From assembly GCA_000004985.1 (NCBI GenBank), contig GG738891.1: a stretch of DNA of 64,000 nt. One strand, 5' to 3'. Of the stretch, positions 3,983 through 50,924 are shown piece after piece. This stretch comes from Naegleria gruberi (Eukaryota). The translations under genes were made by a program, and so were the position numbers. The stretch's first letter is position 1. The number at the start of each line of letters is the position of its first letter. The notes under the pieces are model-generated. The model searched no databases. It was not told the DNA's origin and saw only the letters and a list, made by a program, of their open reading frames with translations.

Positions 3983-4405
3983 ATGTCATCAAGAAAGCAA
4001 AGTGCCAAACCAAAAGCCAAATTCAACAAGCCAGAATATTGTTTGAATTTTAGTGCATCGGAAATGATAACAATAACATCAGAAGATGGTTTTCAATTTT
4101 ATATCGATAAGAGATGTGCTTCCTTTTGCAAAAGATTTAGAGAAGGTAAATAATCGTTATAATTTAATGGAGATAGGAAATACAAAAATATTATTACTAA
4201 TACAATAACAATAATCAAAACAGAAATTGATGAAGGAAAAACTGTAATTTGTGTAGACTATCCATCAAATATTGTTGAACAGGTTATTGAATACTTGTAC
4301 TATAAACAAAGATATGATAATGAAGCTGAGAATAGACCTGAATTTCCAATTGATTTATACAACGCTCTCGATTTGATGACTGCAAGTTATGCTTTGGGGT
4401 GTTAA
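3983..4405 (+). CDS. Elongin C (SKP1-fold transcription elongation / E3 ligase adaptor)
   Basis: join(3983..4145,4224..4405); 78-nt intron gtaaat..cag in phase 1. The spliced protein (114 aa) ends ...VICVDYPSNIVEQVIEYLYYKQRYDNEAENRPEFPIDLYNALDLMTASYALGC, closely matching the Elongin C C-terminus. The unspliced ORF is below the track threshold. Confidence 0.8.
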
Positions 4406-4409
4406 TTTC

Positions 4410-6578
4410 TTATTTCAAGAAGTTTTTATTGATTTCTGTAGCTATTTTAACCATTTCAATCTTTGAGTTATGTCTTCTATCGACAGGAAGTGATTTCTGT
4501 TGAACGAATCTAATAGCTATATTTGTAAATAATTTTGGAGCATTTGGAAGAACTTGTTTTCTCCAAAAATCTTCCATATCTGAAATGCTAATACTCTCAT
4601 TACCAAATGTCTCAAATACAATTGCAATTTCCTTAAATACCAATTCATTATATTTAGATGTGAAATTCTTTTCATTCATCTTAAGTTGTACGCTATCATT
4701 TCCACTGATTGGTGAATATCCTACACAAGCACATCTTCTAATATTTGAATACTTGTTGTAAAAGGCGTGTTCAATACAAGGTGGAGCTATCATGTGTTTT
4801 CTTTCATTTTCCAATGCAATATGGAACATGTGGCTCAATCTTCCACAATACCAAAGCATTTTGTTCTCGTCCATGTAGCCAATATCTCCTGTTTTGTGGT
4901 AAAGAATTCCATTTATCATCTCCTTACTTGTCTTCATTGCATTGTCGTCAAGCTCATATCTTGGACTAATGGCAGATCCACCAACCCAAATTTCACCAAT
5001 ATTGGATGTTGAAACATATTCTTGATTTCTAATCAAAATTGTAATGTTTGGACATTCCTTGCCAACACAATATCCCTTTGTAATACTGTATATTTCGCTA
5101 TCTGATGTGTAAATATTATCCAACTCATATGTATTAGTCAAACAAATGGGTAACCCCTCAGTAGCTCCATAAGTTGGGAAAATTGCTGGCTCACTTGATT
5201 CTTTTGAGGCCCATTTTCTTAATTTTTGATGAAGTGAATAAGGAGCTACAGAACCGCCACATAACAATACCTCCAGCGGTGGAGAGATAGTATTCTCTTC
5301 TTTGATTGACCCAGCAGCTTCATTCATTTTCTTGCAATAATCAATTACTTCCATCCATACAATAGGAGAGCAAAATCCCATTCTTGGATAAAATACATTC
5401 AAGGCGTTGATGTAGTGCTTGGAGTTAACACTAGCTGGGCTTGCCAAATTAAAAGGTGGAACAATTGCTGTCAATCCCATACAGTTTACACATAAAGTCA
5501 TTACTGTGTTGTGATTGATTACTCTGTCTTGTCTTCCTTTTATGAGATATGGCCTCATTAATTCGTTAAAGCTATATATTTGATTCTTTAACATTCCGTG
5601 AGTAATGTGAACAAGCTTTGGAATACCTGTAGTTCCAGTTGTATTGACAATAACTACAGTTTCGTCATCATCAAATTGGTAGAGATTTTCATCATTTTCC
5701 TCTGGTTCAATTTGTAGCTTTTCAACATTAACAATTTTTGTAATTTTCTTCCATTCTGGACGATTCTTGCTCAGTAAATTGAAAGCTCTATCAGAAGGTG
5801 TAAATAGCAAAACCTTTTTAGCAATATTGAGGAATTGTCTCTTTTTGAACAAGCTTGCGGCTTGAATCACTAAATAAATAAGTGGTGAAACAATTACAGC
5901 GTCAATATTCAATTTAGGAATCCACTCAAGGAAACTATCAATTCCACATTCATTAGGGTTCAATACAAGAATTTCTTGACCAGTTTGAATCAATGAAAAT
6001 ACCAATGGAACAAGTTGAATATCGTTTGGATCAACTAGAATAATGACTCTATTTTTGTTCTTATCCTTCAATTCATTTCCAATAACTCTATTATAAAATC
6101 TAATTGATTTTCTAACTTGATGAAAGGTCATTGAATTGTTTGTATCATTAATTTTGTAAAGATAATCAGCTGGATATAAATTGATTTTTCCAAGAGCAAA
6201 AAATATCAAAAAAGGTGTAAATAATAATGCCTTTTGATAACCTTCCAAATAATAAAACAGTAAAATGAAAATAGTCCACCCAGTCAAATAATAAATAAAT
6301 TTGTTAAATTTAACATTAGTTGGATAATGAAGAGCAGGTACTTCTGGATCTTTTTCCGCAACTTGTTCAAATAATTTTCCTAAAACATTATTAGGTTTGA
6401 TTTTTTGTTTAGATCGATCTCTTGGTGGAGGAAGAGGTGGTTGTTGAGCAATATTTTCTTGATCACTATCAATTGAAATTGTTGATTGTTCATAGCTTGC
6501 ATCTTCTTCATCGGAAAATTCAATTAAAGCTTCTTTTGTTTTACCAGAGGAAGCAATGCCTTCTCTTGAAATTGGCAT
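4410..6578 (-). CDS. AMP-dependent synthetase/ligase (long-chain acyl-CoA synthetase-like) with an acidic/Pro-rich, 2-TM N-terminal extension
   Basis: 722-aa single exon. AMP-binding P-loop motif NTTGTTGIPKLVHITHGML plus a downstream adenylate-forming core (YKTGDIGYMDENKMLWYCGR). The stop lies 4 bp from the Elongin C stop (convergent). Confidence 0.8.
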   Translation of the reverse strand: MPISREGIASSGKTKEALIEFSDEEDASYEQSTISIDSDQENIAQQPPLPPPRDRSKQKIKPNNVLGKLFEQVAEKDPEVPALHYPTNVKFNKFIYYLTGWTIFILLFYYLEGYQKALLFTPFLIFFALGKINLYPADYLYKINDTNNSMTFHQVRKSIRFYNRVIGNELKDKNKNRVIILVDPNDIQLVPLVFSLIQTGQEILVLNPNECGIDSFLEWIPKLNIDAVIVSPLIYLVIQAASLFKKRQFLNIAKKVLLFTPSDRAFNLLSKNRPEWKKITKIVNVEKLQIEPEENDENLYQFDDDETVVIVNTTGTTGIPKLVHITHGMLKNQIYSFNELMRPYLIKGRQDRVINHNTVMTLCVNCMGLTAIVPPFNLASPASVNSKHYINALNVFYPRMGFCSPIVWMEVIDYCKKMNEAAGSIKEENTISPPLEVLLCGGSVAPYSLHQKLRKWASKESSEPAIFPTYGATEGLPICLTNTYELDNIYTSDSEIYSITKGYCVGKECPNITILIRNQEYVSTSNIGEIWVGGSAISPRYELDDNAMKTSKEMINGILYHKTGDIGYMDENKMLWYCGRLSHMFHIALENERKHMIAPPCIEHAFYNKYSNIRRCACVGYSPISGNDSVQLKMNEKNFTSKYNELVFKEIAIVFETFGNESISISDMEDFWRKQVLPNAPKLFTNIAIRFVQQKSLPVDRRHNSKIEMVKIATEINKNFLK

Positions 6579-23001: not shown

Positions 23002-24135
23002 ATGAGTCATCTCGATCAAAGGAAGAGGAAATACAATGATGATGAGGACGATAATTCTCCATCCACAGACACACAACTCATGATCAGAGCAGACAGTCAT
23101 GAACAAGATGAAAAGAGGAGAAAATTAACATCTTTAATGGAATTACCTCCACGTTCGTCATCGCTTTCAGCACCAATTTTAAAACTTGATGGACACAAAT
23201 CCGAAGTATTTACTTGTAAATTTTCGAATAGTGGAAATTTTCTTGCTACAGGTTCAGCAGATAAATCAGTTTTATTGTGGGATGTTTTCGGAGAGAGTGC
23301 CAAGAGTGAAGATGATGACTTATCATCAACCACTGTGAATTATGGTAGCTTATTGGGACATAAGAATGCTGTATTGGATTTGGATTGGTTTACATCAGAG
23401 GATCGTATTTGTACAGCTTCAGCTGATAATACTGTCATCTTGTGGGATATTATCAAATGTCTTAAAGTGAGACAATTTAAACAACATTCATCAATTGTAA
23501 ATTCTTGTTCAACATCAAAATATTCAAAACAATCGGATCTATTTGTATCAGCAGGTGATGATAGAGCCATCAATATTTATGACCAAAGAGAAAGAAAATG
23601 TATAAAAACAATCAAGAGCAAATATCCAGTCTTCTCGGCATGCTTTTCAGAAAATAATGATAGATTATTCACATGTGGAATTGATAGTGTCATTACTACA
23701 TGGGATTTGAAAACTGATAAATTCATTTACAACCTAGGCAGTGGGCACACTGATTCAATTACAGATATCAAGCTTTCACCTGATGGTAATTTCCTCCTAA
23801 GTAATTCTATGGATGGCACATGTCGTGTTTGGGATTGTAGACATTATGCCGAATCTGCCAATAGATGTGTAAAATTATTTAATGGAGCTAAACATTCAAT
23901 GGATAAGAATCTAGTTCGTGTTGCATGGTATAAGGATAGCTCATTGATTTCAACAGGTGCCGAAAATGATGTCATGATTTGGAATACCACTACAAGAAAG
24001 ATTGAATATCAATTACCTGGACATCATGGTTCTGTAAATTGTGTTCATTTCCATCCTCAACAACCAATTATTGCCTCAGCTTCAAGTGACAAGACTGTTT
24101 ATTTGGGTGAAATTGATTCAAAATCTATTTATTAA
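23002..24135 (+). CDS. snrnp40: U5 snRNP 40 kDa WD40 protein (SNRNP40/PRP8-binding protein)
   Basis: 377-aa single exon. Collinear similarity to SNRNP40 throughout (LDGHKSEVFTCKFSNSGNFLATGSADKSVLLWDVFG ... LPGHHGSVNCVHFHPQQPIIASASSDKTVYLGEI). Seven WD repeats. Confidence 0.85.
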   Translation: MSHLDQRKRKYNDDEDDNSPSTDTQLMIRADSHEQDEKRRKLTSLMELPPRSSSLSAPILKLDGHKSEVFTCKFSNSGNFLATGSADKSVLLWDVFGESAKSEDDDLSSTTVNYGSLLGHKNAVLDLDWFTSEDRICTASADNTVILWDIIKCLKVRQFKQHSSIVNSCSTSKYSKQSDLFVSAGDDRAINIYDQRERKCIKTIKSKYPVFSACFSENNDRLFTCGIDSVITTWDLKTDKFIYNLGSGHTDSITDIKLSPDGNFLLSNSMDGTCRVWDCRHYAESANRCVKLFNGAKHSMDKNLVRVAWYKDSSLISTGAENDVMIWNTTTRKIEYQLPGHHGSVNCVHFHPQQPIIASASSDKTVYLGEIDSKSIY

Positions 24136-25597
24136 ATAATAATTTTTCAATTTTGGCCAATCTTGCTTCTAAAACAGCTTTATCCTTATACAGATAAAGT
24201 TCATTAAAATCTTCAGCCTTCTTCTTTACCAGAGTTGACTTCTTGGGTGTTGCCTGTTGTAATTTGTTGCTGACATTGTTCACAATTTCACTTTCAGCAA
24301 GACTTTGACTCTTTTTCAACAATATTTGTTCCTCTCTTTTCACATTTTCCTTAAAGGTCTCTCTTGGAACCATCATAATATTATTGACAATAAAATCAAC
24401 CATTACATCCATCTTTAAAAAGTTTTCACTATTAATCCATTCATAATTTGTTTCATCTTTTCTGAACCATGTATTTTGATGTTTGGAATATCTTCTGGTG
24501 GAAACTTTGAATTCTCTCAAAAATCTCAAGAAGGATTTCTTTAAAGCTGATTTGAAAAAGTGATCCCTCCTATCAACAGTTTTCATATAATTAATGAAAT
24601 CATAAGCTTCCTTATAACCAATTGATCTGAATGGAACTGTATGATCTAGTAATATTCCTCGATCCATTAAACTGTATACTTCTTCTAAAAGTCCAGCTTC
24701 CACTAAATTTTCACATCTCCTTTCCAAACTTGCATAGAGTTTATATCTGTCTAAATAGAGAACAATTCCACGAACATCTAAATTATTTTCAGATACTTTA
24801 TCCATAAATCCATTCTTATACTTGAATTCTTTCATTGTTTTTCCAGATTCAGTCACAATAGTATAAGCTCTATTCAATCTATATAAATCATTTCTGTGAA
24901 TTTTTGATGCATATTCTGGATCTTTTTCTTGTAAAACTTTATATCTTCTATCCCATTCATCAGTTGAAACTCGTGTTAAATCATCCATTTTTTGAACAGA
25001 AAGAGTAGTTGGTTGTGGAATTTCCAAATTAGTTCCATCAATGAATGTATTCAAGTAAAAAGCACTTCCTCCAACGAGTATTGGCAATTTTCCTCTCGCC
25101 AGAATTTCCAAACACTTTTCATGAGCATCAACATAAAATTGTTGAACTGTATATTGATGAGTTTTATCGTGTGCACATTTTTCCAATGAAACATTATTAA
25201 CTAAATGATGAGAAATTCCTTGCATTTCCTCTTCTTTAATTTTGTTACTTCCGATAGAACATTCCTTATACATTTGAACAGAATCTACATTAATAATTTC
25301 TCCATTCAATCTTTTAGCAATTTCAATAGAAATTGGTGTTTTACCTGTACCTGTTGCTCCTGTTATTATAAAAACTTGATTTTTCAATTCTTTTGCAATA
25401 TTATTAGTATGATTATTGTTACTATCCATTGTTGTTGTATTATTAATAGTTGTTGTTGTTGATGAATAATTAAATTTAATAATAGGAGCAACATTTTGAA
25501 TCAGTAGTGATTTGATAAATCCTCTTCGGAGCATTGCATTATTACATGATGGTGGACCACCAAACAACAATTTCAATCCTTGTTGTTGTTTGAACAT
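24125..25597 (-). CDS. tRNA dimethylallyltransferase (tRNA isopentenyltransferase, MiaA/Mod5/TRIT1 family), probable organellar presequence
   Basis: 490 aa. P-loop IITGATGTGKTPISIEIAKRLNGEIINVDSVQMYKECSIGSNKI and downstream IPT core (LPILVGGSAFYLNTFIDG). The 3' end overlaps the SNRNP40 CDS by 11 bp (24125..24135, convergent). Confidence 0.85.
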   Translation of the reverse strand: MFKQQQGLKLLFGGPPSCNNAMLRRGFIKSLLIQNVAPIIKFNYSSTTTTINNTTTMDSNNNHTNNIAKELKNQVFIITGATGTGKTPISIEIAKRLNGEIINVDSVQMYKECSIGSNKIKEEEMQGISHHLVNNVSLEKCAHDKTHQYTVQQFYVDAHEKCLEILARGKLPILVGGSAFYLNTFIDGTNLEIPQPTTLSVQKMDDLTRVSTDEWDRRYKVLQEKDPEYASKIHRNDLYRLNRAYTIVTESGKTMKEFKYKNGFMDKVSENNLDVRGIVLYLDRYKLYASLERRCENLVEAGLLEEVYSLMDRGILLDHTVPFRSIGYKEAYDFINYMKTVDRRDHFFKSALKKSFLRFLREFKVSTRRYSKHQNTWFRKDETNYEWINSENFLKMDVMVDFIVNNIMMVPRETFKENVKREEQILLKKSQSLAESEIVNNVSNKLQQATPKKSTLVKKKAEDFNELYLYKDKAVLEARLAKIEKLLFNK

Positions 25598-27804: not shown

Positions 27805-30057
27805 TTATTGTTTGCATTGACTTTTGTGAATTGGCCAATCAATACTTTGACAATCTTGTCCACAATATTTAACTTTTTTACAATAACCACAAAGTAAATT
27901 CTTTTTCTTCTCCTTCTTTCCACAACAATCACATCTGTTCTTATCAAACTCAACTATTTCTCTATTAATATCAATATCAGTATCAGCCTTAGCATACGAA
28001 AAGCCAATTGGAGGTTTTGCACCTTTTAAAATTGCTCCACGTATTGATAACAGGTTCATACAATTTGGAGAAAGATAAGGATCTCCAGACTTGACAGTTT
28101 CTTGAGCCCAATTTAAATACCTGGTAAATGACGTTGAATTTCCAATTTGTGGGTCTACAATAAGTCTGGGATATGATACAATTAGAGAAACTATAAAACT
28201 TGTAAGGTTTGATAATATGTGTGATTGACTTAAATTAGCAATGTCAATGAAATATAAAAATCCTCCCTTTGTTTTGTCTAATATGTAGTGCAAAATTGAC
28301 TTGTTTTCATGATCTTTGATATTCGCAAGATACATCACCAAAGCTGCTGAATATTTCACTAATCCTTGTTCTTCCTCTTTTATAATCTTGACAGGTGGTG
28401 GTAAACGAAACTGTAAATTAGCTATACAAGTAAATGCAAGCTCTTTAGCTTTTTCGAAAGGAATTCTAGATTGAAATGATTGAAAGACGAAACAATTATT
28501 GAAAATATCCATACACGCTTTTGTAACTGCGATTGACTCATTCTTGTAATTGTTAAATATTGGATATAGCTTGTCTAAAATTTGATATTGTTTCTCCAAC
28601 ATGTTTCTAAAGCTTCCTGTTTGATTTTTGTAACACCATGAAAGCGTACTTAGAGCCATTTCCAAATTTTGGTGATGTGAATCTAATGTAATAAAGGGCA
28701 TGCAAACATCTACGACTCCAAGATCATGCATTTTGTATGCAAAATCAACAGAAATATCCAACAATATTTGGAAATATTTTTGAAAATCTGAAATAACTCT
28801 TTCTTCAACAGTATTTGGACCATATTCCTTTAAATGTGAATCTATCCTTTTGATTACATCAGGTACAATACTGAGCCCTTTCTTTAATACATACATTATT
28901 CAAATCAATGTTGGGTTAAAACTTACATGAGTCATTAAAACAATTTTGTCTACATCTTCGTCTTCAACTAATAATAACTTAGAATAAAGATAACAGGAAG
29001 CACTGTGAAATTCAGTATCCTTTTTTGAAAATCTGATTGCCTGTAAGAATATATTACATAATTTACCAATATGGAAATCCTGTAGCTGTTTGATAACTGG
29101 CCAAAACTTGTTTTGAAATACTGCATAAAATAGTCTAAAACCTAATACAGAAATTGTATAATATTTCTTGCTTTTGTTTCTCACAAACATTAAATCGTTG
29201 AGTAATTCCTTAACCTTTTGTGATACTTCAAATCTATGTCTTGTAATTGGATCCATAAGAAAGAAAATGTTACCAAACATGATGAGCAGAGGTTTCAAAT
29301 TTTCATCGCAAAGATCATCGCTGTAGGAAAGGCAAGTAACAAAAAACTGATCTAAATTTGAAACATTCATCGCTTTTCTTGAAAAACATTCTCTATTACA
29401 AACCATTAGTGTTATGGCCTCAGATTCTTCCTTTGTTGGCTGATTGTTCTTACATTTTGACATTAATCCGTCAAGTAATTCATTACACTTTTGACGAAGG
29501 TCTCTTTCATTCAAACATCCATATGTCTTTACCCAATTAAAACTGTTGTAATTACTTGGTAACATCAAAGAAGATTCAGTGATGGAAAATAACTTATCAG
29601 CTGGTTCGTCAATAGGAAGGGATGAAACACTATCAACAAATGCATCTATTCCATTTTTAGGTTTGGTTTCAAGTGCTTTCTTAACTTCTTCCTTTAAAGA
29701 TTTCAATATTTTTCTTCCTTCATCATCATTAACTCTTTTACAATTTTGTAATCCCAATATACAAACAGTATTAGCTTCTTCAAATCTAGTCAATAATAAA
29801 AGAATTTTAGCTTTTCTTGAATAAGCCTTGTACCACTTGTTATCTAATGAAAGTGATTTGTTTGCGTCTTCCAAGGCTTCGCGATATTTTCCCATCTGAA
29901 TATACGTTTGTGCTCTATTTCCTAAATAAACAGAATTGTTGGGATCCAATTCAATAGCCTTGGAATAGTGAGTAAGGGCCTGAAGAAAATTCTTATCTCG
30001 GAAAAAATCATTCCCCAATTTCTTTTCCTCTTCAGCTTGAACAATATTGTTGTTCAT
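27805..30057 (-). CDS. TPR-repeat protein with a C-terminal MYND zinc finger
   Basis: join(complement 28927..30057, 27805..28881); 45-nt intron (gtaagt..ttaaag) in phase 0 joins track ORFs 28900..30177 and 27805..28896. N-terminal TPRs (KKLGNDFFRDKNFLQALTHYSKAIELDPNNSVYLGNRAQTYIQMGKYREALEDANKSLSLDNKWYKAYSRKA). C-terminal MYND is CDCCGKKEKKKNLLCGYCKKVKYCGQDCQSIDWPIHKSQC. The start is taken as the A-rich-context ATG at 30057 (MNNNIVQAEEEKK); an upstream in-frame ATG near 30141 is possible. Confidence 0.6.
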
Positions 30058-30453
30058 TTTTTTTGTGCACGAGAGCTTAATGTAAATGTTAAGGCAGTGT
30101 AGGCAACAAAACACTTGAAACCAGAAAGCGGTTCGAGGAAAATTCATGTGATGGAGTGAGACAGAGAGAAAGTCCAATCACAGTGTGTATCTATTTGTTG
30201 AATGCTTAATGTGGCAGAAGGTAACCCCACTTCAAGAAATGCAGTTGTACGACATTTACGTACTAGAGATTAGAGATGGGGAATAAAACTAGCTTTATGT
30301 TTCGAGGCTAATTGGAATTTGGATAGAAGACAACTTTACACAAGATGCCATGTTTGCTAATGTTGGATAGAATCTAATTGGAAGAATCGAAATGATCATC
30401 GAATGTTTATTTAAAAATACGCGCAAAAACTGGTCTTTCAAAAACAAAACAAA

Positions 30454-30984
30454 ATGCAATCAAATCCTATTGAAACTCACCAAAATACTTCATCAAATAT
30501 TAAACAATACTTTGAAAATTGGAGGAAATTAATCAAATCTAATCCAGTTGTTACCGCTCAAGTAATAATCATTGCTATCATGTTGATACTTTTTATAATA
30601 TCAACATTCGGACAAAGTGAAAGAGATATCAGTTCTGCTACATGTTTATTGGCTGTCAAGTTTGTTTTACCATTCTTTTCGTGTATATTTTGTTTGGCTA
30701 GGAGTAAGCTCTTGGTAGGAGTGATGGCCTTCCTTTCATTAATCTCACTCACTGCAGGAAGTTTATGTGCATTCTTGATCATGTATCCATTCCATGGTAA
30801 GGTTGTGGAAGACCCATTAATTAGTGGTCCTGCTTGGGGAATTATGGGATTTGAAGTCGTTTCATTTTCTTGTCAAATTGTAATGATTTTCTGGATTAGG
30901 TCCATTGAAAAGACACCTAGTGAAACAATGAGTATTCCACAACAAGAACAAGTACAACTTAATGACGAAGAAGATCAAGTTTAA
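30454..30984 (+). CDS. Small polytopic membrane protein (about 4 TM), hypothetical
   Basis: 176 aa with four hydrophobic helices and an acidic C-terminus. Its stop is 1 bp from the stop of the convergent gene at 30986. Confidence 0.45.
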   Translation: MQSNPIETHQNTSSNIKQYFENWRKLIKSNPVVTAQVIIIAIMLILFIISTFGQSERDISSATCLLAVKFVLPFFSCIFCLARSKLLVGVMAFLSLISLTAGSLCAFLIMYPFHGKVVEDPLISGPAWGIMGFEVVSFSCQIVMIFWIRSIEKTPSETMSIPQQEQVQLNDEEDQV

Positions 30985-30985
30985 T

Positions 30986-32887
30986 TTACTTTTTAGGTTT
31001 TTCTTTTCTAATAAACTCAATAGTATTTTCACTATCCTCACAATTTGAATAAGTTTCTAAATATTTCAGAGAGGGCATTAGTTTCTTAAGAGAAGGTAGA
31101 TTTAAATCATTAGACCTCCAAAAGAATGTTTTTAAACATAAATATTCCACATTACTGAATACACCAGAATTAGGAACATCGATCATAAATAATTTCTTGG
31201 AATCAATAATTCCAACTAATTGAACTGAACGAAGTTCCAATTCTTCTACATGATCTGGAATATTCATTTCAATGGAAGTGTTTTTAGCAGCCTGTAAGGC
31301 CAAATTGTTAATAGATTTCATTCGCTTTAACATTTTCTCAACCTGAGCTGACTTTAGGGATGTTTTTGTAAAATTGTTAATTTTTAAAATGTGAAGATTT
31401 GGAAATGTTGAAGGATCTAAAATATCTAATAATGTTTTTGATAAGTTAATTTTTGTAAAAGTTATTCCTCTAACACACTCAGAAAGTGAATTCAAGATGG
31501 TGGCGACGAAATCTGGACTACAATCTTCTAATGTTACGTATTCAACAACTTTCAAAACCTGATCAAGAATTTTCTTATCTGGAAGACCTTCATTCTTTTT
31601 AAAGTTTTTGCATGTGATTTCTTTCAAGCATTGATTTGTTGAAGGCAATTTCTTAAGGCAGTCATAACCAATTGATTCTCCATTCACAATCATAGAAACC
31701 AAGTTTGGTACATATTTGATCATTGAGTCATGATTAACATAGGCCCTCTTTACAAATGGGCAATCTAATTTTACAATTACTGTAACATGCTCTAAATCTA
31801 TTAAATCCCAAGCCATAGTAGGTTCCTTTACATTCAGTACAGCAATATCATTTAGACCTAAACTTGAAAGTTGTTTAGAATCAATGCTTAAATTTTCTGA
31901 TCTAAAAACAGTACATTTCTCCAAAGTTGGGCACTGAATCACTATATTGGAAAAGTCACTTATATGTAAGCTTGTGATAGTTGGGTGGGATATTGTAATC
32001 TCTTTGGTTTTTTTGTGATGGGATGTTATACAAAGATGTGTAAGGGTTGGAAACTGCTTCAAAGCACTTGATGCCTTGGAGAATACATTGAGTATGAAAG
32101 GACTTGAATGACAGCTCAATGATTTTAACTTGTCAAAAACAGTATCTGTTCTCTCGAATATCGTACAGTAAGCCGAAATGTCATCCTTTTCTGGGGCAGC
32201 ATTTTTTGAGTGATCAAGGGGTATGGCCTTTGCCTTAATGTTATGCTTGTTTACCATATTTTCAATACCTGGAATTCTGGTATAAGTTTTGATTGCATCA
32301 ATTCTAAATGTAATGTACTTTTCAAAAAAAATCATTTCACTTTTAACATCAATTGGATATTCATAATGAACAAGTGCTTGTGGCAATTCACTCGCTTGTT
32401 TCCACAATTTGCAAACTCTATTAATTTGAACAAATTCCTTAACTGGAAGGTATGAAAATATGATAGCCCATATTTCTGGAATATCAAGTTTAAAAAGAAA
32501 GTAACTATCCTGAGAGGGATTAATTGTTCGAATAGAATTGGACGTCATGAACATGTCTGCTTGCATTACAGAAACCAAAAACTCATCAGTCACTTGTTTC
32601 AAATGTTTAACAATATTAATTGACAATTCTTTTTGTTTCAAATTAGTTTCATCAGAAAAGAGCCTTCGGAGAGAGTCTTCATCCTTTAATTTCTTGACTG
32701 TCTGTGCCATCCATTGAACAAAATCATCCGATGATGTCTCACACTCAATCAAAACTTGATCACTATTCTTCTCTTTAATTTCTTCATCAGTACTTGATGA
32801 TTGTTTCACCTTTTTTACTTCTACTTCACAAGCAGAATCTGCTTCCGTAATCTTTCTCTTACTGGCCACTTTTTTGTGTGGTGGCAT
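30986..32887 (-). CDS. F-box / leucine-rich-repeat protein
   Basis: 633 aa. F-box LDIPEIWAIIFSYLPVKEFVQINRVCKLWKQASELP, followed by degenerate LRRs. Confidence 0.6.
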   Translation of the reverse strand: MPPHKKVASKRKITEADSACEVEVKKVKQSSSTDEEIKEKNSDQVLIECETSSDDFVQWMAQTVKKLKDEDSLRRLFSDETNLKQKELSINIVKHLKQVTDEFLVSVMQADMFMTSNSIRTINPSQDSYFLFKLDIPEIWAIIFSYLPVKEFVQINRVCKLWKQASELPQALVHYEYPIDVKSEMIFFEKYITFRIDAIKTYTRIPGIENMVNKHNIKAKAIPLDHSKNAAPEKDDISAYCTIFERTDTVFDKLKSLSCHSSPFILNVFSKASSALKQFPTLTHLCITSHHKKTKEITISHPTITSLHISDFSNIVIQCPTLEKCTVFRSENLSIDSKQLSSLGLNDIAVLNVKEPTMAWDLIDLEHVTVIVKLDCPFVKRAYVNHDSMIKYVPNLVSMIVNGESIGYDCLKKLPSTNQCLKEITCKNFKKNEGLPDKKILDQVLKVVEYVTLEDCSPDFVATILNSLSECVRGITFTKINLSKTLLDILDPSTFPNLHILKINNFTKTSLKSAQVEKMLKRMKSINNLALQAAKNTSIEMNIPDHVEELELRSVQLVGIIDSKKLFMIDVPNSGVFSNVEYLCLKTFFWRSNDLNLPSLKKLMPSLKYLETYSNCEDSENTIEFIRKEKPKK

Positions 32888-33019: not shown

Positions 33020-34714
33020 ATGTACAGTAATGATCCTTTTGATGATGGGGAAAGAGTGAATCGTTTCTCTTCATTTGAACAGTCGGAGCCAGCGTTTGAT
33101 GAGAGGATGATGGAAGATAGACAACAATCATTTGGTGGTCCTTCTTCAAACTCAGCCTTGGATCCAGCCCTTAGAGCTCTTATTAAATATAGAAGAAGAA
33201 AATTTACAGAGTCTGTGGATGCTTGTAATCAGTTATTATCCAAAAATTATAAGGATATGTCCATGTGGTATATAAAATGTAGGGCGTTGACTGCTAAAAT
33301 GTGGATTGATGATACAGAAATGGAAGATGAAGGTATTGCTGATATTTTACTTGATGAAACATCGGTAACAACAGCTCCTCGTCCTGGAACTTCTCTTAAA
33401 AGACCACACACTAATTCATCAGGCAAAAGAAGTGCCAATCCGAGTGTCAGACCTCAAACTAAGGATGGAAGACCAATCACTGGTTTTTCAAGACCTGGTA
33501 CCAATAGCGGAAGAAACACTGCAAGTAGAGGTGGGACAGGAACACAAAGTAGAGGTGGAACTTCAAGTATTGAAAATATATTTAAAGGTGCAAGACCTGG
33601 AACAACAAGACCAGTTACTACAACAGGTAGATTTGTTCGTTTGGGTACTGCCTCAATGAAAATATCTGGACTTGATCAAGAATATGCAATTTCAACAGAA
33701 CATATTGATTTGAAAAAGTATGCTGCTATTCCTCCTCTTGCTAAAGCATTGTATGACTATTTTATAGTTGTGGAACATGATGTAAAAAAAGCATTAGAAT
33801 TGGCTTCTTATGCTACAATTGAGGCTGAATTTAAGGATTGGTGGTGGAAGGCTCGTCTCGGAAAATGTTACTACCAATTGGGTTTATTGAGAGAAGCTGA
33901 AAAACAATATAGATCTGCAATCAAGAGCCAGCACATGATTGCAACATGCTTGGAATTAGGCAAAGTTTTCCTACGATTGGATCAGCCTAATAAGGCTTTA
34001 GAAGAATACGAGTCAGCATGTTTGAAATTCCCAAATGATACACATTTGATACTAGGTATTGCAAGAGTTTATGATAGTATGAACGATCTGGACAAGGCCA
34101 TTCAATATTATGAAAAAGTGCTGCATCTTAACAGTAGTAACGTTGAAAGTATTGCTTGTTTGGCAGGTAACTATTTCTATGAAGATCAACCTGAAGTAGC
34201 TATCAGACTGTACAGAAGATTGATTCAAATGGGTGTTAATAATTCAGAATTGTGGAACAATTTGGGACTTTGTTGTTTCTACGCTTCTCAATATGATATG
34301 GTATTCTCATGTTTTGATAGAGCTCTCCAATTAGCTGAAGATAATAATGAAGCAGAAGTGTGGTACAATATTGGTCAAGTTGCCATTGGTATTGGTGATG
34401 TTGGTCTTGCATATCAGTGTTTCAAGATTGCCACAAGTATTGACAATGAACATGCAGAAAGCTTTAACAATTTGGGTGTTTTAGAATTGAGAATGGGCAA
34501 TACAGAAGAAAGTAAGAATTACTTTGCTCAATCAATGGCTCTTGGACCAAGTCAACACGAACAAATATTCAACAATGCCTTATTATCATTCAAGAGAGGC
34601 AATCACCAACAAGCTCACGAACTTGTATTGAAGATTCTGAAAGATATTTATCCTGAACATGCTGATTCTCAGGAATTGAGGAAGAAATTAGAAGCCAAAT
34701 ATTTAATGCTCTAA
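33020..34714 (+). CDS. bbs8: Bardet-Biedl syndrome 8 protein homologue (TTC8/BBS8, BBSome subunit)
   Basis: 564-aa single exon. Collinear with TTC8: YRRRKF...PRPGTSLKRP...GRPITGFSRPGT...GRFVRLGTASM...KDWWWKARLGKCYYQLGLLREAEKQYRSA...IARVYDSMND...VESIACLAGNYFYEDQPEVAIRLYRRLIQMG...LWNNLGLCCFYASQYDM...AEVWYNIGQVAIGIGD...FNNLGVLELRMGN, with a C-terminus ending ...KYLML. Confidence 0.85.
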   Translation: MYSNDPFDDGERVNRFSSFEQSEPAFDERMMEDRQQSFGGPSSNSALDPALRALIKYRRRKFTESVDACNQLLSKNYKDMSMWYIKCRALTAKMWIDDTEMEDEGIADILLDETSVTTAPRPGTSLKRPHTNSSGKRSANPSVRPQTKDGRPITGFSRPGTNSGRNTASRGGTGTQSRGGTSSIENIFKGARPGTTRPVTTTGRFVRLGTASMKISGLDQEYAISTEHIDLKKYAAIPPLAKALYDYFIVVEHDVKKALELASYATIEAEFKDWWWKARLGKCYYQLGLLREAEKQYRSAIKSQHMIATCLELGKVFLRLDQPNKALEEYESACLKFPNDTHLILGIARVYDSMNDLDKAIQYYEKVLHLNSSNVESIACLAGNYFYEDQPEVAIRLYRRLIQMGVNNSELWNNLGLCCFYASQYDMVFSCFDRALQLAEDNNEAEVWYNIGQVAIGIGDVGLAYQCFKIATSIDNEHAESFNNLGVLELRMGNTEESKNYFAQSMALGPSQHEQIFNNALLSFKRGNHQQAHELVLKILKDIYPEHADSQELRKKLEAKYLML

Positions 34715-34744
34715 ATAAATTGTCAATAAACCAATATTTAAAAA

Positions 34745-36508
34745 ATGCAACAATCTAGTCGGAGATTAATCTCCAAATTACGAGCATCACCTTCACTACT
34801 TCGGAGGAAAACAAATAATATTTCTTTATCATCAAATTATTCTTCTTCTTTTCATCGATCCATTATTAAACAAAATACTAATAATAATAGCAATAATACT
34901 GTGGAAATAATTAATGAAGAAAAGGCTAAAGAACCTATTAAACTTCTTCAAAGAACAATTTCCTATCCAATTTATGAATCATTAGAATTTAATGATAAAA
35001 CTCATCTAGTCTATCAAAAGGAATTTAAATTATTGGAATCAAAATCTTTAAATTTAGAAATTAATACACGTAATATGAATGTAGAAATTTGTAATTATCA
35101 AGATGATGATAGTGATTCTATTAAAATTGAAATATATACACATAATTGTAATCCATATTCATGGTATGATTTAAATAATACACCACAAGGCTTCTTCTCC
35201 GATTATAAAATTGAACATTTATTTAGAGATTTAACAAATACATTGAGAATTAATGTTCATCAAGCACCAGTTCCTTCTCTTTTCTATAGACATAAATTAT
35301 TTAATCAAACTATTGATAATGTATTTCTTCCTAATGAAGTTTCTAAATTTATTGAAAGTAGAACTAAATTTACAACAATGAAAGTTTATTTACCTAAAGA
35401 AAATAATTCAATTAAAGTTGAAACTGATATTGGAAATATTATATTTAGAAATTTGAAAAATTTAAATGAATGTTTTGTAAAATCATCATTTGGATCATTA
35501 TATATTGATAAAGATGGCATTGATAATGTAAAAAAATTTAATTTGGAAATGTTATATGGATCTTGCTTTATTAAGAAAGTATCTAATGTGGAAAATTTGA
35601 AAATTAATCATTTATTTTCACTTATAGATCATTTTGGACGTGGAGCTGGAATTTTAGCATCAAATTCAATTACATTAGATAATATTGATTCAAATTCTAA
35701 TGTAAATATTCATACAATAGATCCAATAGATATATTTGTTAATCAGATTAGTCTTACAAATAATAATACTCTATCAATTTCATGTAGAACTAAAGATGGT
35801 ACTTTATTTACGTATACTTCAAATGGAATTCAAGTTTTTGTATCTGATGAAGTCAATTCAGGCACAAATTCAAAACTTAAAATATTCTCAGATTCTAATC
35901 CAATTACTTGCTATTTTGATAAGAATTCTGTTGTAAATTATAAAGTACAGGCTGTTTCACAAAGAAGTGATGTCTCAGTAGATTACAACAATATAATATT
36001 TGATGGAAGTGATGTTGTGAATAGTGTGAATGGAACAATTGTTAGTAGAAAAGATACTAAACGATTACATCTTCTCAATCAATCAATAATTGATTCTCCT
36101 CAAGAAGAAAATATTGATACTACTGCTACTGATTTATCCTCATTAACTGAATGCCCAATTGGTGGTGATGTATCAATGACTTGTAGACATTCACAAATTC
36201 ACATTAAACAATATGAATATCTTTTATTGGGTGATGGTGAACAAGGTGCTGATTCTGATTTGAGTACAAGACGATTACTCTATCAGAAACAAAGTACCTC
36301 AGAGTATTATATTGAACTTTTGGATTATAGAATTGCAAAGAGAGATGCTTTTGTTTACGTTTCCATAGCTGTTTTATTGATAATTTATGTTTCCATTATC
36401 AAATTTTATTCAATTCCAACATTTGAAAAGCAAGCTTGGTTGAACAATAGTGGAATGGCTTCAACGATGGGAAATCCAACTGAGGCTTTAAGACCAAACA
36501 CTAAATAA
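34745..36508 (+). CDS. Hypothetical protein with an Arg/Ser-rich N-terminus (possible organellar presequence) and a C-terminal transmembrane anchor
   Basis: 587-aa ATG-initiated ORF with Asn-rich low complexity near the N-terminus and a hydrophobic segment AFVYVSIAVLLIIYVSIIKFY near the C-terminus. No recognised domain. Confidence 0.45.
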   Translation: MQQSSRRLISKLRASPSLLRRKTNNISLSSNYSSSFHRSIIKQNTNNNSNNTVEIINEEKAKEPIKLLQRTISYPIYESLEFNDKTHLVYQKEFKLLESKSLNLEINTRNMNVEICNYQDDDSDSIKIEIYTHNCNPYSWYDLNNTPQGFFSDYKIEHLFRDLTNTLRINVHQAPVPSLFYRHKLFNQTIDNVFLPNEVSKFIESRTKFTTMKVYLPKENNSIKVETDIGNIIFRNLKNLNECFVKSSFGSLYIDKDGIDNVKKFNLEMLYGSCFIKKVSNVENLKINHLFSLIDHFGRGAGILASNSITLDNIDSNSNVNIHTIDPIDIFVNQISLTNNNTLSISCRTKDGTLFTYTSNGIQVFVSDEVNSGTNSKLKIFSDSNPITCYFDKNSVVNYKVQAVSQRSDVSVDYNNIIFDGSDVVNSVNGTIVSRKDTKRLHLLNQSIIDSPQEENIDTTATDLSSLTECPIGGDVSMTCRHSQIHIKQYEYLLLGDGEQGADSDLSTRRLLYQKQSTSEYYIELLDYRIAKRDAFVYVSIAVLLIIYVSIIKFYSIPTFEKQAWLNNSGMASTMGNPTEALRPNTK

Positions 36509-36525
36509 ATTAAATATTTAATTTC

Positions 36526-37176
36526 CTACTTGTTGAATAATGAATAGTAACAAATAATAATACATGTAAATACTGTAATAGAAAGTGTTACTAATTTAAC
36601 AATTTCAAAATCTTGTAAGTTTCCAACTGGTATATCTACTGATATTATTTGAGTATTTTCTGAATTGATAATATTAAATTCCTTTCCATCAATATAGAAA
36701 ATTGTTGGGATATTAATTTGCACAGTTGTGAAAGATTCAGTTGAGCTTGGAAATTGATATCTAAAATGTATTGGATATTTAAAAGTAACAGTGAATTCAT
36801 TTCCACTTTGTTTTACAATCTTTGACAATGTGACATTATGTTCAGTACTAGAATATGATGGTGCCTCAACATTGATATAATATTGATGTTTGGGTAAGAG
36901 AATTTCTTTCATATTATTAATTTCATAAATATCAATATAAATATCCTTTGATAATTTTTCCACATAGGAAATATTCATCAATTTACCAACAGCACTGTTC
37001 TCGGAATTATTTAATTTAATTCTAAATGTGCTAATTAATTCTCTGTGAAATCCTTGTTTTGTTAATTCCCTAGATATTAAAGATACTTCTTGTGTAGTAA
37101 CAAATTCTAGTTGTTGAATAAATAAAAGAGTGCCAATAATTAACATAATAGTGTTCCGAATAATCTTATTGTACAT
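36526..37176 (-). CDS. Type I membrane protein, possibly PIG-X/PBN1-like (GPI mannosyltransferase I accessory subunit)
   Basis: 216 aa. N-terminal signal/anchor (MLIIGTLLFIQQLEF), a C-terminal TM (IVKLVTLSITVFTCIIICYY) and a KYPIHFRYQFP segment resembling the PIG-X HxRY motif. Weak assignment. Confidence 0.35.
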   Translation of the reverse strand: MYNKIIRNTIMLIIGTLLFIQQLEFVTTQEVSLISRELTKQGFHRELISTFRIKLNNSENSAVGKLMNISYVEKLSKDIYIDIYEINNMKEILLPKHQYYINVEAPSYSSTEHNVTLSKIVKQSGNEFTVTFKYPIHFRYQFPSSTESFTTVQINIPTIFYIDGKEFNIINSENTQIISVDIPVGNLQDFEIVKLVTLSITVFTCIIICYYSLFNK

Positions 37177-37193
37177 TTTTTTAATTTAGTTTT

Positions 37194-47182: not shown

Positions 47183-47220
47183 ATTTAATTAAAAATTGTA
47201 AAAAAACTTTGAGGTAATCT

Positions 47221-47952
47221 TTACATTGAATAAGCAATGATATTTTGAGCAATGAAATAAGTTGGTAATCCAATCATTGAATTATATGGAGATTGAATTA
47301 AAAATTGTTGACGAGCTACAAAAATATCTGATAAACAAAATAGAGAAGCTCCAATAACTCTCAAATAGGCAAGTTCTAAAGATGAAAATCCTTCTCCTCT
47401 AAAAATTAATTTGTAAAATAAATTCTTGAAAAAAACAAAATAATTCTTTGTCAATAAATTTTCACCTGCACCTGAAATGGCAGTCATTGTTGAAATAACT
47501 CCTAAATATGGATAAACAAGAACATCATAACTTCTATCTTGAATTTTTGCAACAACAAATAAATAACCATATCCATAACAAATAATAAAGGATGCAACAA
47601 TTGGAATGATTAAACTAATATAATGTTCTCTGGTTGACTTGAATTTTGATTTAAAAATTGTAAGAAAAGTCAAAGCATAAAAAACATGACATAATAAGAA
47701 TGAAAAACCACCCATCATGAAACCATTTGGAAGGGCTAATAAAACATCACCAATAATTGCAAATATTAAAGCAATAAAAGTGAGTACATTCTCTGAATTC
47801 AATCTCATATATCCAATATAAACAAATAACAAGGCACAACTTGCTTTAGTATATACATTCGGACCCAAACCTATAAAGTGATTCAATAACAAGACAATTA
47901 ATAATGTCCATTCATAGATACGATTGTAATTATTTGATCCTAAGAATACCAT
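47221..47952 (-). CDS. YhhN-family membrane protein (TMEM86/lysoplasmalogenase-like)
   Basis: 243 aa, about 7 TM, with the family motif IFAIIGDVLLAL and a second conserved region. Confidence 0.6.
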   Translation of the reverse strand: MVFLGSNNYNRIYEWTLLIVLLLNHFIGLGPNVYTKASCALLFVYIGYMRLNSENVLTFIALIFAIIGDVLLALPNGFMMGGFSFLLCHVFYALTFLTIFKSKFKSTREHYISLIIPIVASFIICYGYGYLFVVAKIQDRSYDVLVYPYLGVISTMTAISGAGENLLTKNYFVFFKNLFYKLIFRGEGFSSLELAYLRVIGASLFCLSDIFVARQQFLIQSPYNSMIGLPTYFIAQNIIAYSM

Positions 47953-48284
47953 ATCTTTCTTTTTTATCTATTATTATTATGATATTGAATATTGATGAAG
48001 GAGTGATTCTATTTTTTATGTGGTGAATCTCTCTCGTTGTTCTGAATGATTCTAAAATGATGATTTTTAAATTTAATCTTTTATTGTCGGTTTTCAATCC
48101 GATCAACAACATTCCTCAAATTTAATTTAGCCTGTTTAGATCGGTAAGCTGTACGATCAAGTAAATTCTGTTCAGTCAAATCCTTATTAGAAAGCCTTTT
48201 TAGAAAATAATTTGAAAATAATTTCAATTACAAAAAACTATTTATTATTTTATTAAGCATTGGTTATAATATTATTGTAAAATA

Positions 48285-50893: not shown

Positions 50894-50924
<31 letters not shown>

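What the first reader, a model, noticed from the sequence alone, without database searches (positions are those of the whole stretch)
24125..24135. Convergent genes with overlapping or abutting coding ends (extreme 3' packing)
The SNRNP40 CDS ends at 24135 while the convergent tRNA-IPT CDS ends at 24125, an 11-bp overlap of coding sequence on opposite strands. The membrane-protein gene (stop 30984) and the F-box/LRR gene (stop 30986) are 1 bp apart. Elongin C (4405) and acyl-CoA synthetase (4410) are 4 bp apart. The 3'UTRs must be fully antisense-overlapping, suggesting shared bidirectional polyadenylation regions or pervasive sense/antisense transcript overlap.
Basis: seen in the sequence. 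Interest (0 to 1): 0.5.

Follow-up and report, generated by a model that had tools for sequence, protein, structure and literature searches.

The report
Tail-to-tail overlapping genes in Naegleria
Two real genes on opposite strands of the Naegleria gruberi genome share their last 11 bases, but this is one local case of that organism's already described habit of packing gene ends tightly with very short mRNA tails.

Summary
The window is Naegleria gruberi NEG-M nuclear DNA. The U5 snRNP 40K (SNRNP40) CDS ends with TAA at 24133-24135. The convergent tRNA isopentenyltransferase (IPT) CDS ends with TAG at 24127-24125. They share 11 bp, 5 bp excluding the stops. Both C-termini are collinear with orthologues, match the deposited N. 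gruberi protein models, and recur in an independent 99.1%-identical metagenome contig. The 1-bp and 4-bp junctions are also real.

This is a regional rule rather than an oddity. The nine convergent gaps in the window have a median of 17 bp, against 322 bp for divergent and 223 bp for tandem pairs. AAUAAA/AUUAAA hexamers cluster at stop codons (22 of 40 genes, about 5 expected). This matches published nanopore RNA data for N. gruberi: median 3' UTR 39 nt, with some stop codons doubling as poly(A) signals.

At the focal junction a 9-bp core, TTTATTAAA, reads AUUAAA for SNRNP40 and AAUAAA for IPT. I infer mRNA 3' ends that are complementary over roughly 40 nt. No RNA data were available here.

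The pair is convergent in five related lineages, with gaps of +134, +65, -11, -17 and probably -38 bp.

Verdict: real, ordinary for this genome, low to moderate interest.

The parts
23002..24135 (+). SNRNP40 (U5 snRNP 40K, WD40) CDS, stop TAA at 24133-24135. The deposited model starts further in, at MELPPRS.
   Evidence: ORF. Homologues: P0003 (N. gruberi, 332 aa) is 100% identical. The C-terminus ...YLGEIDSKSIY is collinear with orthologues.
24125..25597 (-). tRNA isopentenyltransferase (IPT) ORF, stop TAG at 24127-24125. The deposited model XP_002673426.1 equals 24128-25429.
   Evidence: Pfam IPPT 2.7e-57. Exact match of 24128-25429(-) to NAEGRDRAFT_51690. The C-terminus ...RLAKIEKLLFNK is collinear with five orthologues.
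24125..24135 (.). 11-bp segment shared by the two CDS. It covers SNRNP40 codons Ser-Ile-Tyr-stop and IPT codons Phe-Asn-Lys-stop.
   Evidence: Direct reading. The junction is identical in the independent contig L005.
24131..24136 (+). ATTAAA hexamer containing the SNRNP40 UAA stop. Candidate dual-use stop and poly(A) signal.
   Evidence: offset -2. Signal rules from PMC11529991. Its use as a signal is inferred.
24128..24133 (-). AATAAA hexamer forming the last two IPT sense codons (Asn-Lys), immediately before the TAG stop. Candidate IPT poly(A) signal.
   Evidence: offset -6. Its use as a signal is inferred.
24098..24103 (-). Second AATAAA on the IPT strand, 24 nt past its stop and antisense to the SNRNP40 Val-Tyr-Leu codons. 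Alternative IPT poly(A) signal.
   Evidence: offset +24.
24142..24156 (+). T-rich stretch (atttttcaattttgg) downstream of the SNRNP40 hexamer. Candidate downstream U-rich element and cleavage zone, inside the IPT CDS.
   Evidence: Sequence. A U-rich downstream element is reported for N. gruberi in PMC11529991. Inferred.
30454..30984 (+). 176-aa hydrophobic ORF ('membrane protein'), stop TAA at 30982-30984. AATAAA lies at 31010-31015.
   Evidence: No deposited protein found. A weak homologue, P0137, aligns up to residue 167 of 176.
30986..32887 (-). F-box protein CDS, stop TAA at 30988-30986. An ATTAAA on the - strand at 30985-30980 covers the neighbour's stop codon.
   Evidence: Exact match to XP_002673428.1. 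Pfam F-box-like. Hexamer.
3983..4405 (+). Elongin C gene (two exons), stop TAA at 4403-4405.
   Evidence: ORFs. The last exon aligns to the final residue of human Elongin C, 1lm8_C.
4410..6578 (-). AMP-binding (acyl-CoA synthetase-like) CDS, stop TAA at 4412-4410.
   Evidence: Exact match to XP_002673419.1.
36508..36523 (.). 16-bp perfect palindrome AATTAAATATTTAATT filling the 17-bp spacer between ORF587 (+, stop 36506-36508) and PIG-X (-, stop 36528-36526). It carries ATTAAA on both strands.
   Evidence: PIG-X 2.2e-25. The palindrome was read directly.
47184..47193 (.). 10-bp palindrome TTTAATTAAA in the 38-bp spacer between the AAA ATPase (+) and YhhN (-) genes. It carries ATTAAA on both strands.
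   Evidence: Pfam hits.

Best explanation
This is a genuine tail-to-tail overlap of two protein-coding genes, SNRNP40 and tRNA isopentenyltransferase, in the gene-dense nuclear genome of Naegleria gruberi.

It exists because 3'-end formation in this organism needs very little space. The poly(A) signal (AAUAAA, or the weaker AUUAAA) commonly sits on or next to the stop codon, and cleavage follows about 15-20 nt later. Convergent neighbours can therefore slide together until their coding ends touch or overlap.

At this junction the 9-bp core TTTATTAAA (24128-24136) supplies AUUAAA to SNRNP40, with its UAA stop embedded. On the other strand it supplies AAUAAA to IPT, as its last two codons, Asn-Lys.

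Each mRNA is predicted to be cleaved about 15-20 nt further on, inside the partner's coding region: near 24151 for SNRNP40 and near 24113 for IPT. That gives 3' ends complementary over roughly 40 nt.

The overlapped codons encode short C-terminal tails that vary between species, apart from the conserved IPT Phe codon (24136-24134), so the double coding costs little.

Shown here: the overlap, the reality of both C-termini, the enrichment of hexamers at stops, the short convergent gaps, and conservation of the gene pair. Inferred: which hexamers are used, where cleavage occurs, and that the transcripts overlap.
For: Organism and deposited models:
- Searches identify N. gruberi NEG-M. The deposited IPT model is identical to 24128-25429(-).
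- P0003, the deposited SNRNP40 model, ends ...DSKSIY. The public annotation therefore already carries the 11-bp overlap.

C-termini are real:
- SNRNP40 is collinear to its end with N. fowleri, N. lovaniensis, another Naegleria species and Willaertia.
- IPT is conserved through ...LLF in all Naegleria and aligns to the end in Willaertia.

Not an assembly error:
- Contig L005, from an unrelated metagenome, is 99.1% identical and has the same junction.

A regional rule:
- Convergent gaps are -11, 1, 4, 16, 17, 38, 40, 89 and 216 bp. The median is 17, against 322 for divergent and 223 for tandem pairs, p about 3e-4.

Signals:
- AWTAAA lies within -6..+40 of the stop in 22 of 40 genes, against 4.8 expected (0 of 2000 random-position controls reached 22).
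- AWTAAA contains the TAA stop in 8 of 31 TAA stops, against a 9.5% background (p=0.007).

Published direct RNA sequencing of N. gruberi (PMC11529991):
- AAUAAA is the top signal and lies 15-20 nt upstream of cleavage.
- Median 3' UTR is 39 nt.
- 11-13% of stop codons overlap AAUAAA, and those UTRs have a median of 22 nt.

The same gene pair is convergent in relatives, with gaps of +65 (N. fowleri), +134 (N. lovaniensis), -17 (L006) and -38 by uninterrupted ORF (Willaertia).
Against: - No transcript 3' ends for these two genes could be inspected, so hexamer usage and the size of the mRNA overlap are predictions.
- AUUAAA was reported as the weaker hexamer, one that also occurs in coding regions, so SNRNP40 might use another site. 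The next ATTAAA is 70 nt downstream.
- IPT has a second AATAAA 24 nt past its stop.
- Several tightly packed neighbours (Elongin C, ORF250, ORF123/ORF189) show no AWTAAA near the stop, so the rule is incomplete.
- The statistics rest on about 40 ORF-defined genes in one window. Some of those have no homology support.
Confidence: 0.78

Rival explanations
1. The overlap is an annotation or ORF-calling artefact. On this view one C-terminal tail is not translated, because of an earlier stop, an unseen 3' intron or a frameshift, and the true CDS do not overlap.
For: The overlapped residues are poorly conserved tails: SNRNP40 ...SKSIY against ...PKAI in relatives, and IPT ...NK against ...TNV or ...ENVSSI. 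The Willaertia annotators placed an intron near the IPT 3' end.
Against: Both proteins align without gaps to orthologues right up to the stop. The IPT Phe codon within the overlap belongs to the LLF motif shared by N. gruberi, N. fowleri and N. lovaniensis (Leu in L006, Pro in Willaertia). The deposited N. gruberi models use the same stops. The Willaertia 'intron' (L007 7185-7234) deletes residues conserved in all Naegleria, so it looks like a predictor's way of avoiding an overlap.
Confidence: 0.04
2. The overlap is an assembly error, for example a collapsed or deleted spacer in the NEG-M draft.
For: N. fowleri and N. lovaniensis have 65-bp and 134-bp spacers at the same junction.
Against: An independently assembled metagenome contig, L005, is 99.1% identical over 3.2 kb and has the identical junction. 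Another Naegleria species (L006) has a 17-bp overlap.
Confidence: 0.02
3. The overlap is a selected regulatory unit. Convergent transcription and complementary 3' ends would couple or mutually restrain expression of the two genes through transcriptional interference, double-stranded RNA or small RNAs. This would also explain why the pair stayed together since the Naegleria-Willaertia ancestor.
For: The convergent SNRNP40/IPT pair is kept in all five lineages examined, despite rearrangements around it. The AAA/YhhN convergent pair is also kept in Willaertia. The two hexamers are interlocked in 9 bp.
Against: The spacing is not conserved and ranges from +134 to -38 bp. The overlapped sequence differs between lineages. 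Tight packing applies to unrelated neighbours throughout the window, which fits general compaction. Retention of tightly packed pairs is expected passively, because a breakpoint between them would damage both 3' ends. No expression or small-RNA data are available.
Confidence: 0.1
4. The packing is neutral and there is no shared signal. The hexamers at the junction are chance products of AT-rich sequence, and 3' ends form elsewhere, for example at the second IPT AATAAA (24103-24098) and the ATTAAA 70 nt downstream of the SNRNP40 stop.
For: The window is about 30% G+C. It holds 193 plus-strand and 185 minus-strand AWTAAA. The back-to-back arrangement is only weakly enriched at convergent junctions: 3 of 25, p=0.005, and one of the three is doubtful.
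Against: AWTAAA is 4- to 5-fold enriched next to stops in this window. Stop-overlapping signals have been validated at transcript level for this species (PMC11529991).
Confidence: 0.15

Closest known systems
Ultrashort 3' UTRs and 'dual-use' stop codon/poly(A) signals in N. gruberi and Giardia (Genome Res 2024, PMC11529991)
   Same: Same organism and same signal set (AAUAAA, then AUUAAA). The hexamer lies on or beside the stop codon, with cleavage 15-20 nt downstream. In this window 5 of 40 genes have AATAAA containing the stop, in line with the published 11-13%.
   Different: In the passages read, the paper treats genes singly and does not discuss convergent neighbours or CDS overlap ('antisense' does not occur in its text). 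Here two such signals on opposite strands interlock in 9 bp. The IPT AAUAAA lies wholly in sense codons rather than overlapping its stop.
Overlapping genes and overlapping transcription in compacted eukaryotic genomes: microsporidia (Williams et al. 2005 PNAS, PMC1182411; Corradi et al. 2008) and nucleomorphs (Gilson & McFadden 1996, PMC38817). All are cited via PMC3629993.
   Same: Intergenic space is squeezed until transcripts, and sometimes CDS, of neighbours overlap. Tight neighbours tend to remain syntenic.
   Different: Those are highly reduced parasite or endosymbiont genomes. From my own knowledge, N. gruberi is a free-living amoeboflagellate with a genome of about 41 Mb. The compaction seen here is specific to 3' ends: convergent gaps have a median of 17 bp, whereas promoter-containing gaps are about 220-320 bp.
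Convergent gene pairs with overlapping 3' UTRs, bidirectional terminators and cis-natural antisense pairs in yeasts and plants (from my own knowledge: S. cerevisiae bidirectional terminators; S. pombe convergent genes, Gullerova & Proudfoot 2008; Arabidopsis cis-NATs)
   Same: Tail-to-tail arrangement, 3'-end signals for both strands within a shared short region, and the potential for complementary mRNA ends.
   Different: In those systems the UTRs overlap but the coding sequences usually do not. Any function (termination coupling, siRNA) is untested here.
Short convergent CDS overlaps in bacteria and viruses
   Same: Stop-proximal codons are shared on opposite strands, and the overlap is confined to a few poorly constrained terminal codons.
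   Different: This is a eukaryotic nuclear context with separate polyadenylated mRNAs. The overlap also carries the poly(A) signals.

Membership tests
Tail-to-tail (convergent) overlapping protein-coding gene pair | Two CDS on opposite strands share nucleotides at their 3' ends | tested here: met
   24125-24135 is shared: 11 bp with both stops, 5 bp of sense codons.
Tail-to-tail (convergent) overlapping protein-coding gene pair | Both ORFs are genuine genes | tested here: met
   IPT matches Pfam IPPT at 2.7e-57. SNRNP40 orthologues are found across eukaryotes. Both match deposited N. gruberi proteins.
Tail-to-tail (convergent) overlapping protein-coding gene pair | Both C-termini are translated up to the stated stops, with no 3' intron or earlier stop | tested here: met
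   Gap-free alignment to orthologues up to the stop for both proteins. There is no peptide or cDNA evidence.
Tail-to-tail (convergent) overlapping protein-coding gene pair | The overlap is not an assembly artefact | tested here: met
   The independent contig L005 is 99.1% identical and has the same junction.
Dual-use stop codon / poly(A) signal (PMC11529991) | The AAUAAA hexamer overlaps the stop codon | tested here: not met
   SNRNP40 has AUUAAA, not AAUAAA, around its UAA. The IPT AAUAAA ends one base before its UAG. Both are near-misses of the strict definition. Five other genes in the window meet it.
Dual-use stop codon / poly(A) signal (PMC11529991) | The resulting 3' UTR is about 20 nt, shown by mapped cleavage sites | not testable with these tools
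   No RNA reads were available, and the paper's supplementary tables are not held.
Bidirectional poly(A) site / terminator at convergent genes | Poly(A) signals for both strands lie within one short shared region | tested here: met
   +ATTAAA at 24131-24136 and -AATAAA at 24133-24128. Palindromes carrying ATTAAA on both strands lie at 36508-36523 and 47184-47193.
Bidirectional poly(A) site / terminator at convergent genes | The region actually directs cleavage or termination in both directions | not testable with these tools
   This needs 3'-end sequencing or reporter assays.
cis-natural antisense transcript pair yielding small RNAs | Complementary transcripts and derived small RNAs are detected | not testable with these tools
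   There is only the geometric inference of a complementary region of roughly 40 nt.

The most novel reading that the evidence does not exclude
The SNRNP40/IPT junction could be an ancient, selected bidirectional 3'-end module. It may already have been overlapped in the common ancestor of Naegleria and Willaertia: three of five lineages overlap, by 11, 17 and probably 38 bp. In Willaertia the last IPT codons would be read antisense to the conserved SNRNP40 YLGEVD motif. In this reading the interlocked poly(A) signals and complementary mRNA ends couple termination or expression of the two genes, and this keeps the pair together.
Probability: 0.1. Interest if true: 0.5.

Novelty: new member of a known kind. 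Interest (0 to 1): 0.25.

Why it matters
The finding gives a concrete, well-verified example of how far 3'-end compaction can go in a free-living eukaryote. Two essential-type genes share coding bases and, apparently, a 9-bp two-way poly(A) core.

It has practical consequences:
- Gene predictors that forbid opposite-strand overlaps will mis-model such loci. The Willaertia IPT model appears to carry a spurious 50-nt intron for this reason, and the 176-aa ORF abutting the F-box gene seems to lack a deposited protein.
- Unstranded RNA-seq will mis-assign reads at these junctions.
- Knock-out or tagging designs at either C-terminus will hit both genes.

Biologically it is an instance of a known phenomenon, not a new mechanism.

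Tried and rejected
- Exact look-ups of the full ATG-to-stop ORFs for SNRNP40 (377 aa), IPT (490 aa) and the membrane ORF found nothing. The deposited models start at internal Met codons, which I found by trying Met variants.
- The look-up of encoding contigs for the N. gruberi proteins P0001 and P0003 returned nothing. The reference GFF could therefore not be read directly.
- A homologue search with only the C-terminal 200 aa of IPT missed all heterolobosean orthologues and returned only distant 311-317-aa IPT-domain proteins from metagenome and sequencing-run assemblies. I took IPT orthologues from the syntenic loci instead.
- A homologue search for the membrane ORF found nothing. The exhaustive HMMER search gave only three weak hits.
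- I first read the Willaertia and N. gruberi minus-strand sequences as showing 'stop-codon sliding' in a shared register. The protein alignment shows instead that the IPT C-termini end at equivalent residues. The difference in overlap is therefore a relative displacement of the genes, and the DNA resemblance comes from being antisense to the conserved SNRNP40 motif. I dropped the sliding idea.
- I also considered that the SNRNP40 tail KSIY* is a duplicate of the DKTVYL motif. A hand count over 10 codons gave 16/30 identical bases, which I judged no better than expected in AT-rich DNA; not tested formally. Rejected.
- A literature search for Naegleria-specific reports of overlapping or convergent genes found none.
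- An Rfam and tRNA scan found nothing at the junctions.
- The apparent 3-bp gap between ORFs at 28896/28900 is a GTAAGT intron within one TPR+MYND gene, not another packing case.
Full report
**What the window is**

Exact-sequence look-ups place the window on a 339-kb scaffold of Naegleria gruberi strain NEG-M. The F-box ORF 30989-32887(-) is XP_002673428.1 and the AMP-binding ORF 4413-6578(-) is XP_002673419.1. The DNA is about 30% G+C. ORFs cover about 83% of the region.

**Checking the observation**

The + strand reads ...tca aaa tct att tat TAA, with the stop at 24133-24135. This ends a 377-codon ORF that starts at 23002.

The - strand reads ...TTA TTT AAT AAA TAG, with the stop at 24127-24125. 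This ends a 490-codon ORF that starts at 25597.

The two CDS share 24125-24135. That is 11 bp counting both stops, and 5 bp (24128-24132) that are sense codons on both strands. SNRNP40 contributes Ser-Ile-Tyr-stop and IPT contributes Phe-Asn-Lys-stop.

The other two junctions are as described:
- TAA-t-TTA at 30982-30988, a 1-bp gap.
- TAA-tttc-TTA at 4403-4412, a 4-bp gap.

**Are the genes and their ends real?**

*SNRNP40.* The ORF has hundreds of homologues, including named U5 snRNP 40 kDa and Prp8-binding proteins. The deposited N. gruberi protein P0003 is 100% identical over its 332 aa and ends with the same ...YLGEIDSKSIY. Orthologues from N. lovaniensis, N. fowleri, another Naegleria species and Willaertia magna align without gaps to within one or two residues of the stop.

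*IPT.* The ORF matches Pfam IPPT at 2.7e-57. The deposited model XP_002673426.1 (NAEGRDRAFT_51690, 434 aa) is exactly window 24128-25429(-), so it uses the same TAG. Its C-terminal motif LY.YKD...RL..I..LLF is conserved in N. fowleri (...LLFENVSSI*), N. lovaniensis (...LLFTNV*) and a further Naegleria species (...LLLRSKVLD*). It aligns to the end in Willaertia (...LPLNK*).

The public annotation already contains the 11-bp overlap.

*Assembly.* An independently assembled metagenome contig, L005, is 99.1% identical over 3.2 kb and carries the identical junction. This rules out an assembly error.

*The other junction genes.*
- Elongin C: the last exon aligns to the final Cys of human Elongin C.
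- F-box and AMP-binding: the deposited models equal the ORFs.
- The 176-aa hydrophobic ORF ending at 30984 is the least secure. I found no deposited protein. A distant 195-aa homologue aligns to residue 167 of 176. A 189-codon open frame is very unlikely by chance at 30% G+C, but its last nine residues are unverified.

**Is it more than chance, and is it special?**

I used about 40 ORF-defined genes in the window.

| Neighbour type | n | Gaps (bp) | Median |
|---|---|---|---|
| Convergent | 9 | -11, 1, 4, 16, 17, 38, 40, 89, 216 | 17 |
| Divergent | 9 | 132 to 1223 | 322 |
| Tandem | 21 | 17 to 1079 | 223 |

Convergent gaps are shorter than either other class, with Mann-Whitney p about 3e-4. 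Tight tail-to-tail packing is therefore systematic here, and the focal overlap is the extreme of a continuous distribution.

Related loci show the same habit. Examples are PIG-X and its convergent neighbour at 4 bp in N. fowleri and 17 bp in N. lovaniensis, and AAA/YhhN at 26 bp in Willaertia.

**How it most likely works**

Nanopore direct RNA sequencing of N. gruberi (PMC11529991) established these points:
- AAUAAA is the main poly(A) signal, and AUUAAA is weaker.
- The signal lies 15-20 nt upstream of cleavage.
- The median 3' UTR is 39 nt.
- 11-13% of stop codons overlap AAUAAA ('dual-use' stops), and those UTRs have a median of 22 nt.
- U-rich sequence follows the signal.

The window reproduces this:
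- AWTAAA begins within -6..+40 of the stop in 22 of 40 genes. About 4.8 are expected at random positions, and 0 of 2000 controls reached 22.
- The hexamer contains the TAA stop in 8 of 31 TAA-terminated genes, against a 9.5% background (p=0.007). Five of the eight are AATAAA.

At the focal junction:
- SNRNP40 reads tAT TAA A, so ATTAAA (24131-24136) has the stop embedded. It is followed by the T-rich stretch atttttcaattttgg.
- IPT ends AAT AAA TAG, so AATAAA (24133-24128) forms its last two sense codons. A second AATAAA lies at 24103-24098.
- The two hexamers interlock in the 9-bp core TTTATTAAA.

Applying the published spacing, SNRNP40 mRNA should end near 24151 and IPT mRNA near 24113. Each 3' UTR would lie wholly inside the partner's coding region, and the two mRNAs would be complementary over roughly 40 nt.

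The same arithmetic predicts overlaps for three more convergent pairs, and none where there is room:

| Pair | Predicted mRNA overlap |
|---|---|
| Membrane ORF / F-box | about 66 nt |
| ORF587 / PIG-X | about 23 nt |
| AAA / YhhN | about 40 nt |
| ORF181 / RPL37e (89-bp gap) | none |

The ORF587/PIG-X spacer is filled by the 16-bp palindrome AATTAAATATTTAATT. The AAA/YhhN spacer contains the 10-bp palindrome TTTAATTAAA. Both palindromes present ATTAAA on both strands.

These are inferences. I had no RNA data, and the paper's supplementary tables are not held. Several tight neighbours (Elongin C, ORF250, ORF123/ORF189) show no recognisable hexamer. The back-to-back hexamer arrangement is only weakly enriched at convergent junctions (3 of 25 occurrences in 1.4% of the window, p=0.005, one of them doubtful).

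**Evolution of the junction**

The SNRNP40-> <-IPT arrangement is kept in every relative I could fetch.

| Lineage | Gap between the two CDS |
|---|---|
| N. lovaniensis | +134 bp |
| N. fowleri | +65 bp |
| N. gruberi and the L005 strain | -11 bp |
| Uncultured Naegleria species, L006 | -17 bp |
| Willaertia magna (uninterrupted ORF) | -38 bp |

The deposited Willaertia model instead ends 41 bp clear of SNRNP40. It does so through a 50-nt GT..AG 'intron' (L007 7185-7234) that removes residues conserved in all Naegleria IPTs and shifts the frame to ...QSTRVR*.

I judge that model to be a predictor artefact of forbidding opposite-strand overlap. RNA evidence is needed to confirm this.

The spacing and the overlapped sequence differ between lineages. 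The overlap itself is therefore not conserved; only the adjacency is. That fits passive retention: a breakpoint between two genes packed this tightly would damage both. General 3'-end compaction explains it better than a selected regulatory unit does, although I cannot exclude the latter.

**Comparison with what is known**

The closest description is the N. gruberi and Giardia work on ultrashort 3' UTRs and dual-use stops (PMC11529991). In the passages I read it treats genes singly and does not discuss convergent overlap.

The general phenomenon is classic for microsporidia and nucleomorphs: neighbouring genes and transcripts overlap in compacted eukaryotic genomes (Williams et al. 2005; Corradi et al. 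2008; Gilson & McFadden 1996; cited through PMC3629993).

Convergent 3'-UTR overlap, bidirectional terminators and cis-antisense pairs are well known in yeasts and plants (my own knowledge).

This case differs in three respects:
- It is in a free-living protist.
- The compaction is specific to 3' ends.
- The coding sequences themselves overlap, and the two poly(A) hexamers overlap with them.

By the strict published definition neither gene has a 'dual-use AAUAAA' stop. SNRNP40 uses the AUUAAA variant, and the IPT AAUAAA ends one base before its stop.

**Verdict**

It is a new, well-documented member of a known kind. Interest is low to moderate (0.25). Its main value is practical, for annotation and experimental design.

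The most novel reading still open is a selected, ancient two-way 3'-end module coupling the two genes. I put that at about 10%.

Noticed in passing
L007 7085-7240 (Willaertia magna, GCA_041937235.1 JBEGDK010000054.1): The deposited IPT model (393 aa, ending at 7164) uses a 50-nt GT..AG intron at 7185-7234. That intron deletes a C-terminal stretch conserved in all Naegleria IPTs. The uninterrupted 436-aa ORF aligns to the end and would overlap SNRNP40 by 38 bp, antisense to its conserved YLGEVDLKSY. The model is probably a mis-annotation caused by avoiding an overlap.
   Followed up: partly
window 30454-30984 (+): This 176-aa hydrophobic ORF abuts the F-box gene. No deposited N. gruberi protein was found by exact look-up or homology search. 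Only three weak hits appeared among 1.84 billion representatives. It is possibly an unannotated small membrane-protein gene.
   Followed up: partly
window 37176-37194 and 34714-34745: Two tandem pairs are almost as tight as the convergent ones. There are 17 bp between the ORF2096 stop and the PIG-X ATG, with ATTAAA 3 nt before that ATG. There are 30 bp between the TPR gene stop (TAAATAAA...AATAAA) and the ORF587 ATG. The upstream mRNA 3' end should therefore fall at or inside the downstream gene's start, and the downstream promoter must lie inside the upstream CDS.
   Followed up: no
window 36508-36523 and 47184-47193: Perfect palindromes AATTAAATATTTAATT (16 bp) and TTTAATTAAA (10 bp) sit in convergent spacers. 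Each presents ATTAAA on both strands. Significance is uncertain in AT-rich DNA.
   Followed up: partly
window 28860-28940 (-): The 3-bp 'gap' between ORFs 28900-30177 and 27805-28896 lies within a short intron that starts with GTAAGT. The TPR part and the zf-MYND part are one spliced gene.
   Followed up: yes
window 4410-4435 (-): The only nearby AATAAA for the AMP-binding gene lies 18 nt upstream of its stop, inside the CDS (ATC AAT AAA AAC TTC TTG AAA TAA). With the published 15-20 nt spacing, cleavage would fall at about the stop codon, implying a near-zero 3' UTR or use of a non-canonical signal.
   Followed up: no
window 50857-50930 (-): A tRNA-Ala(UGC) gene (Rfam 72 bits; also called by ARAGORN) lies 25 bp upstream of the start of ORF 49858-50832. 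It is the only structured RNA found in the window.
   Followed up: no
window 48001-50000 and 54001-56000: G+C content dips locally to 0.20 and 0.25, against about 0.30-0.35 in the first half of the window. The second half of the window is more AT-rich overall.
   Followed up: no
window 45980-47952 versus L007 10983-13122: The convergent AAA-ATPase/YhhN pair is also conserved between N. gruberi (38-bp gap) and Willaertia (26-bp gap), although the surrounding gene order differs. Tightly packed convergent pairs seem to travel as units.
   Followed up: partly
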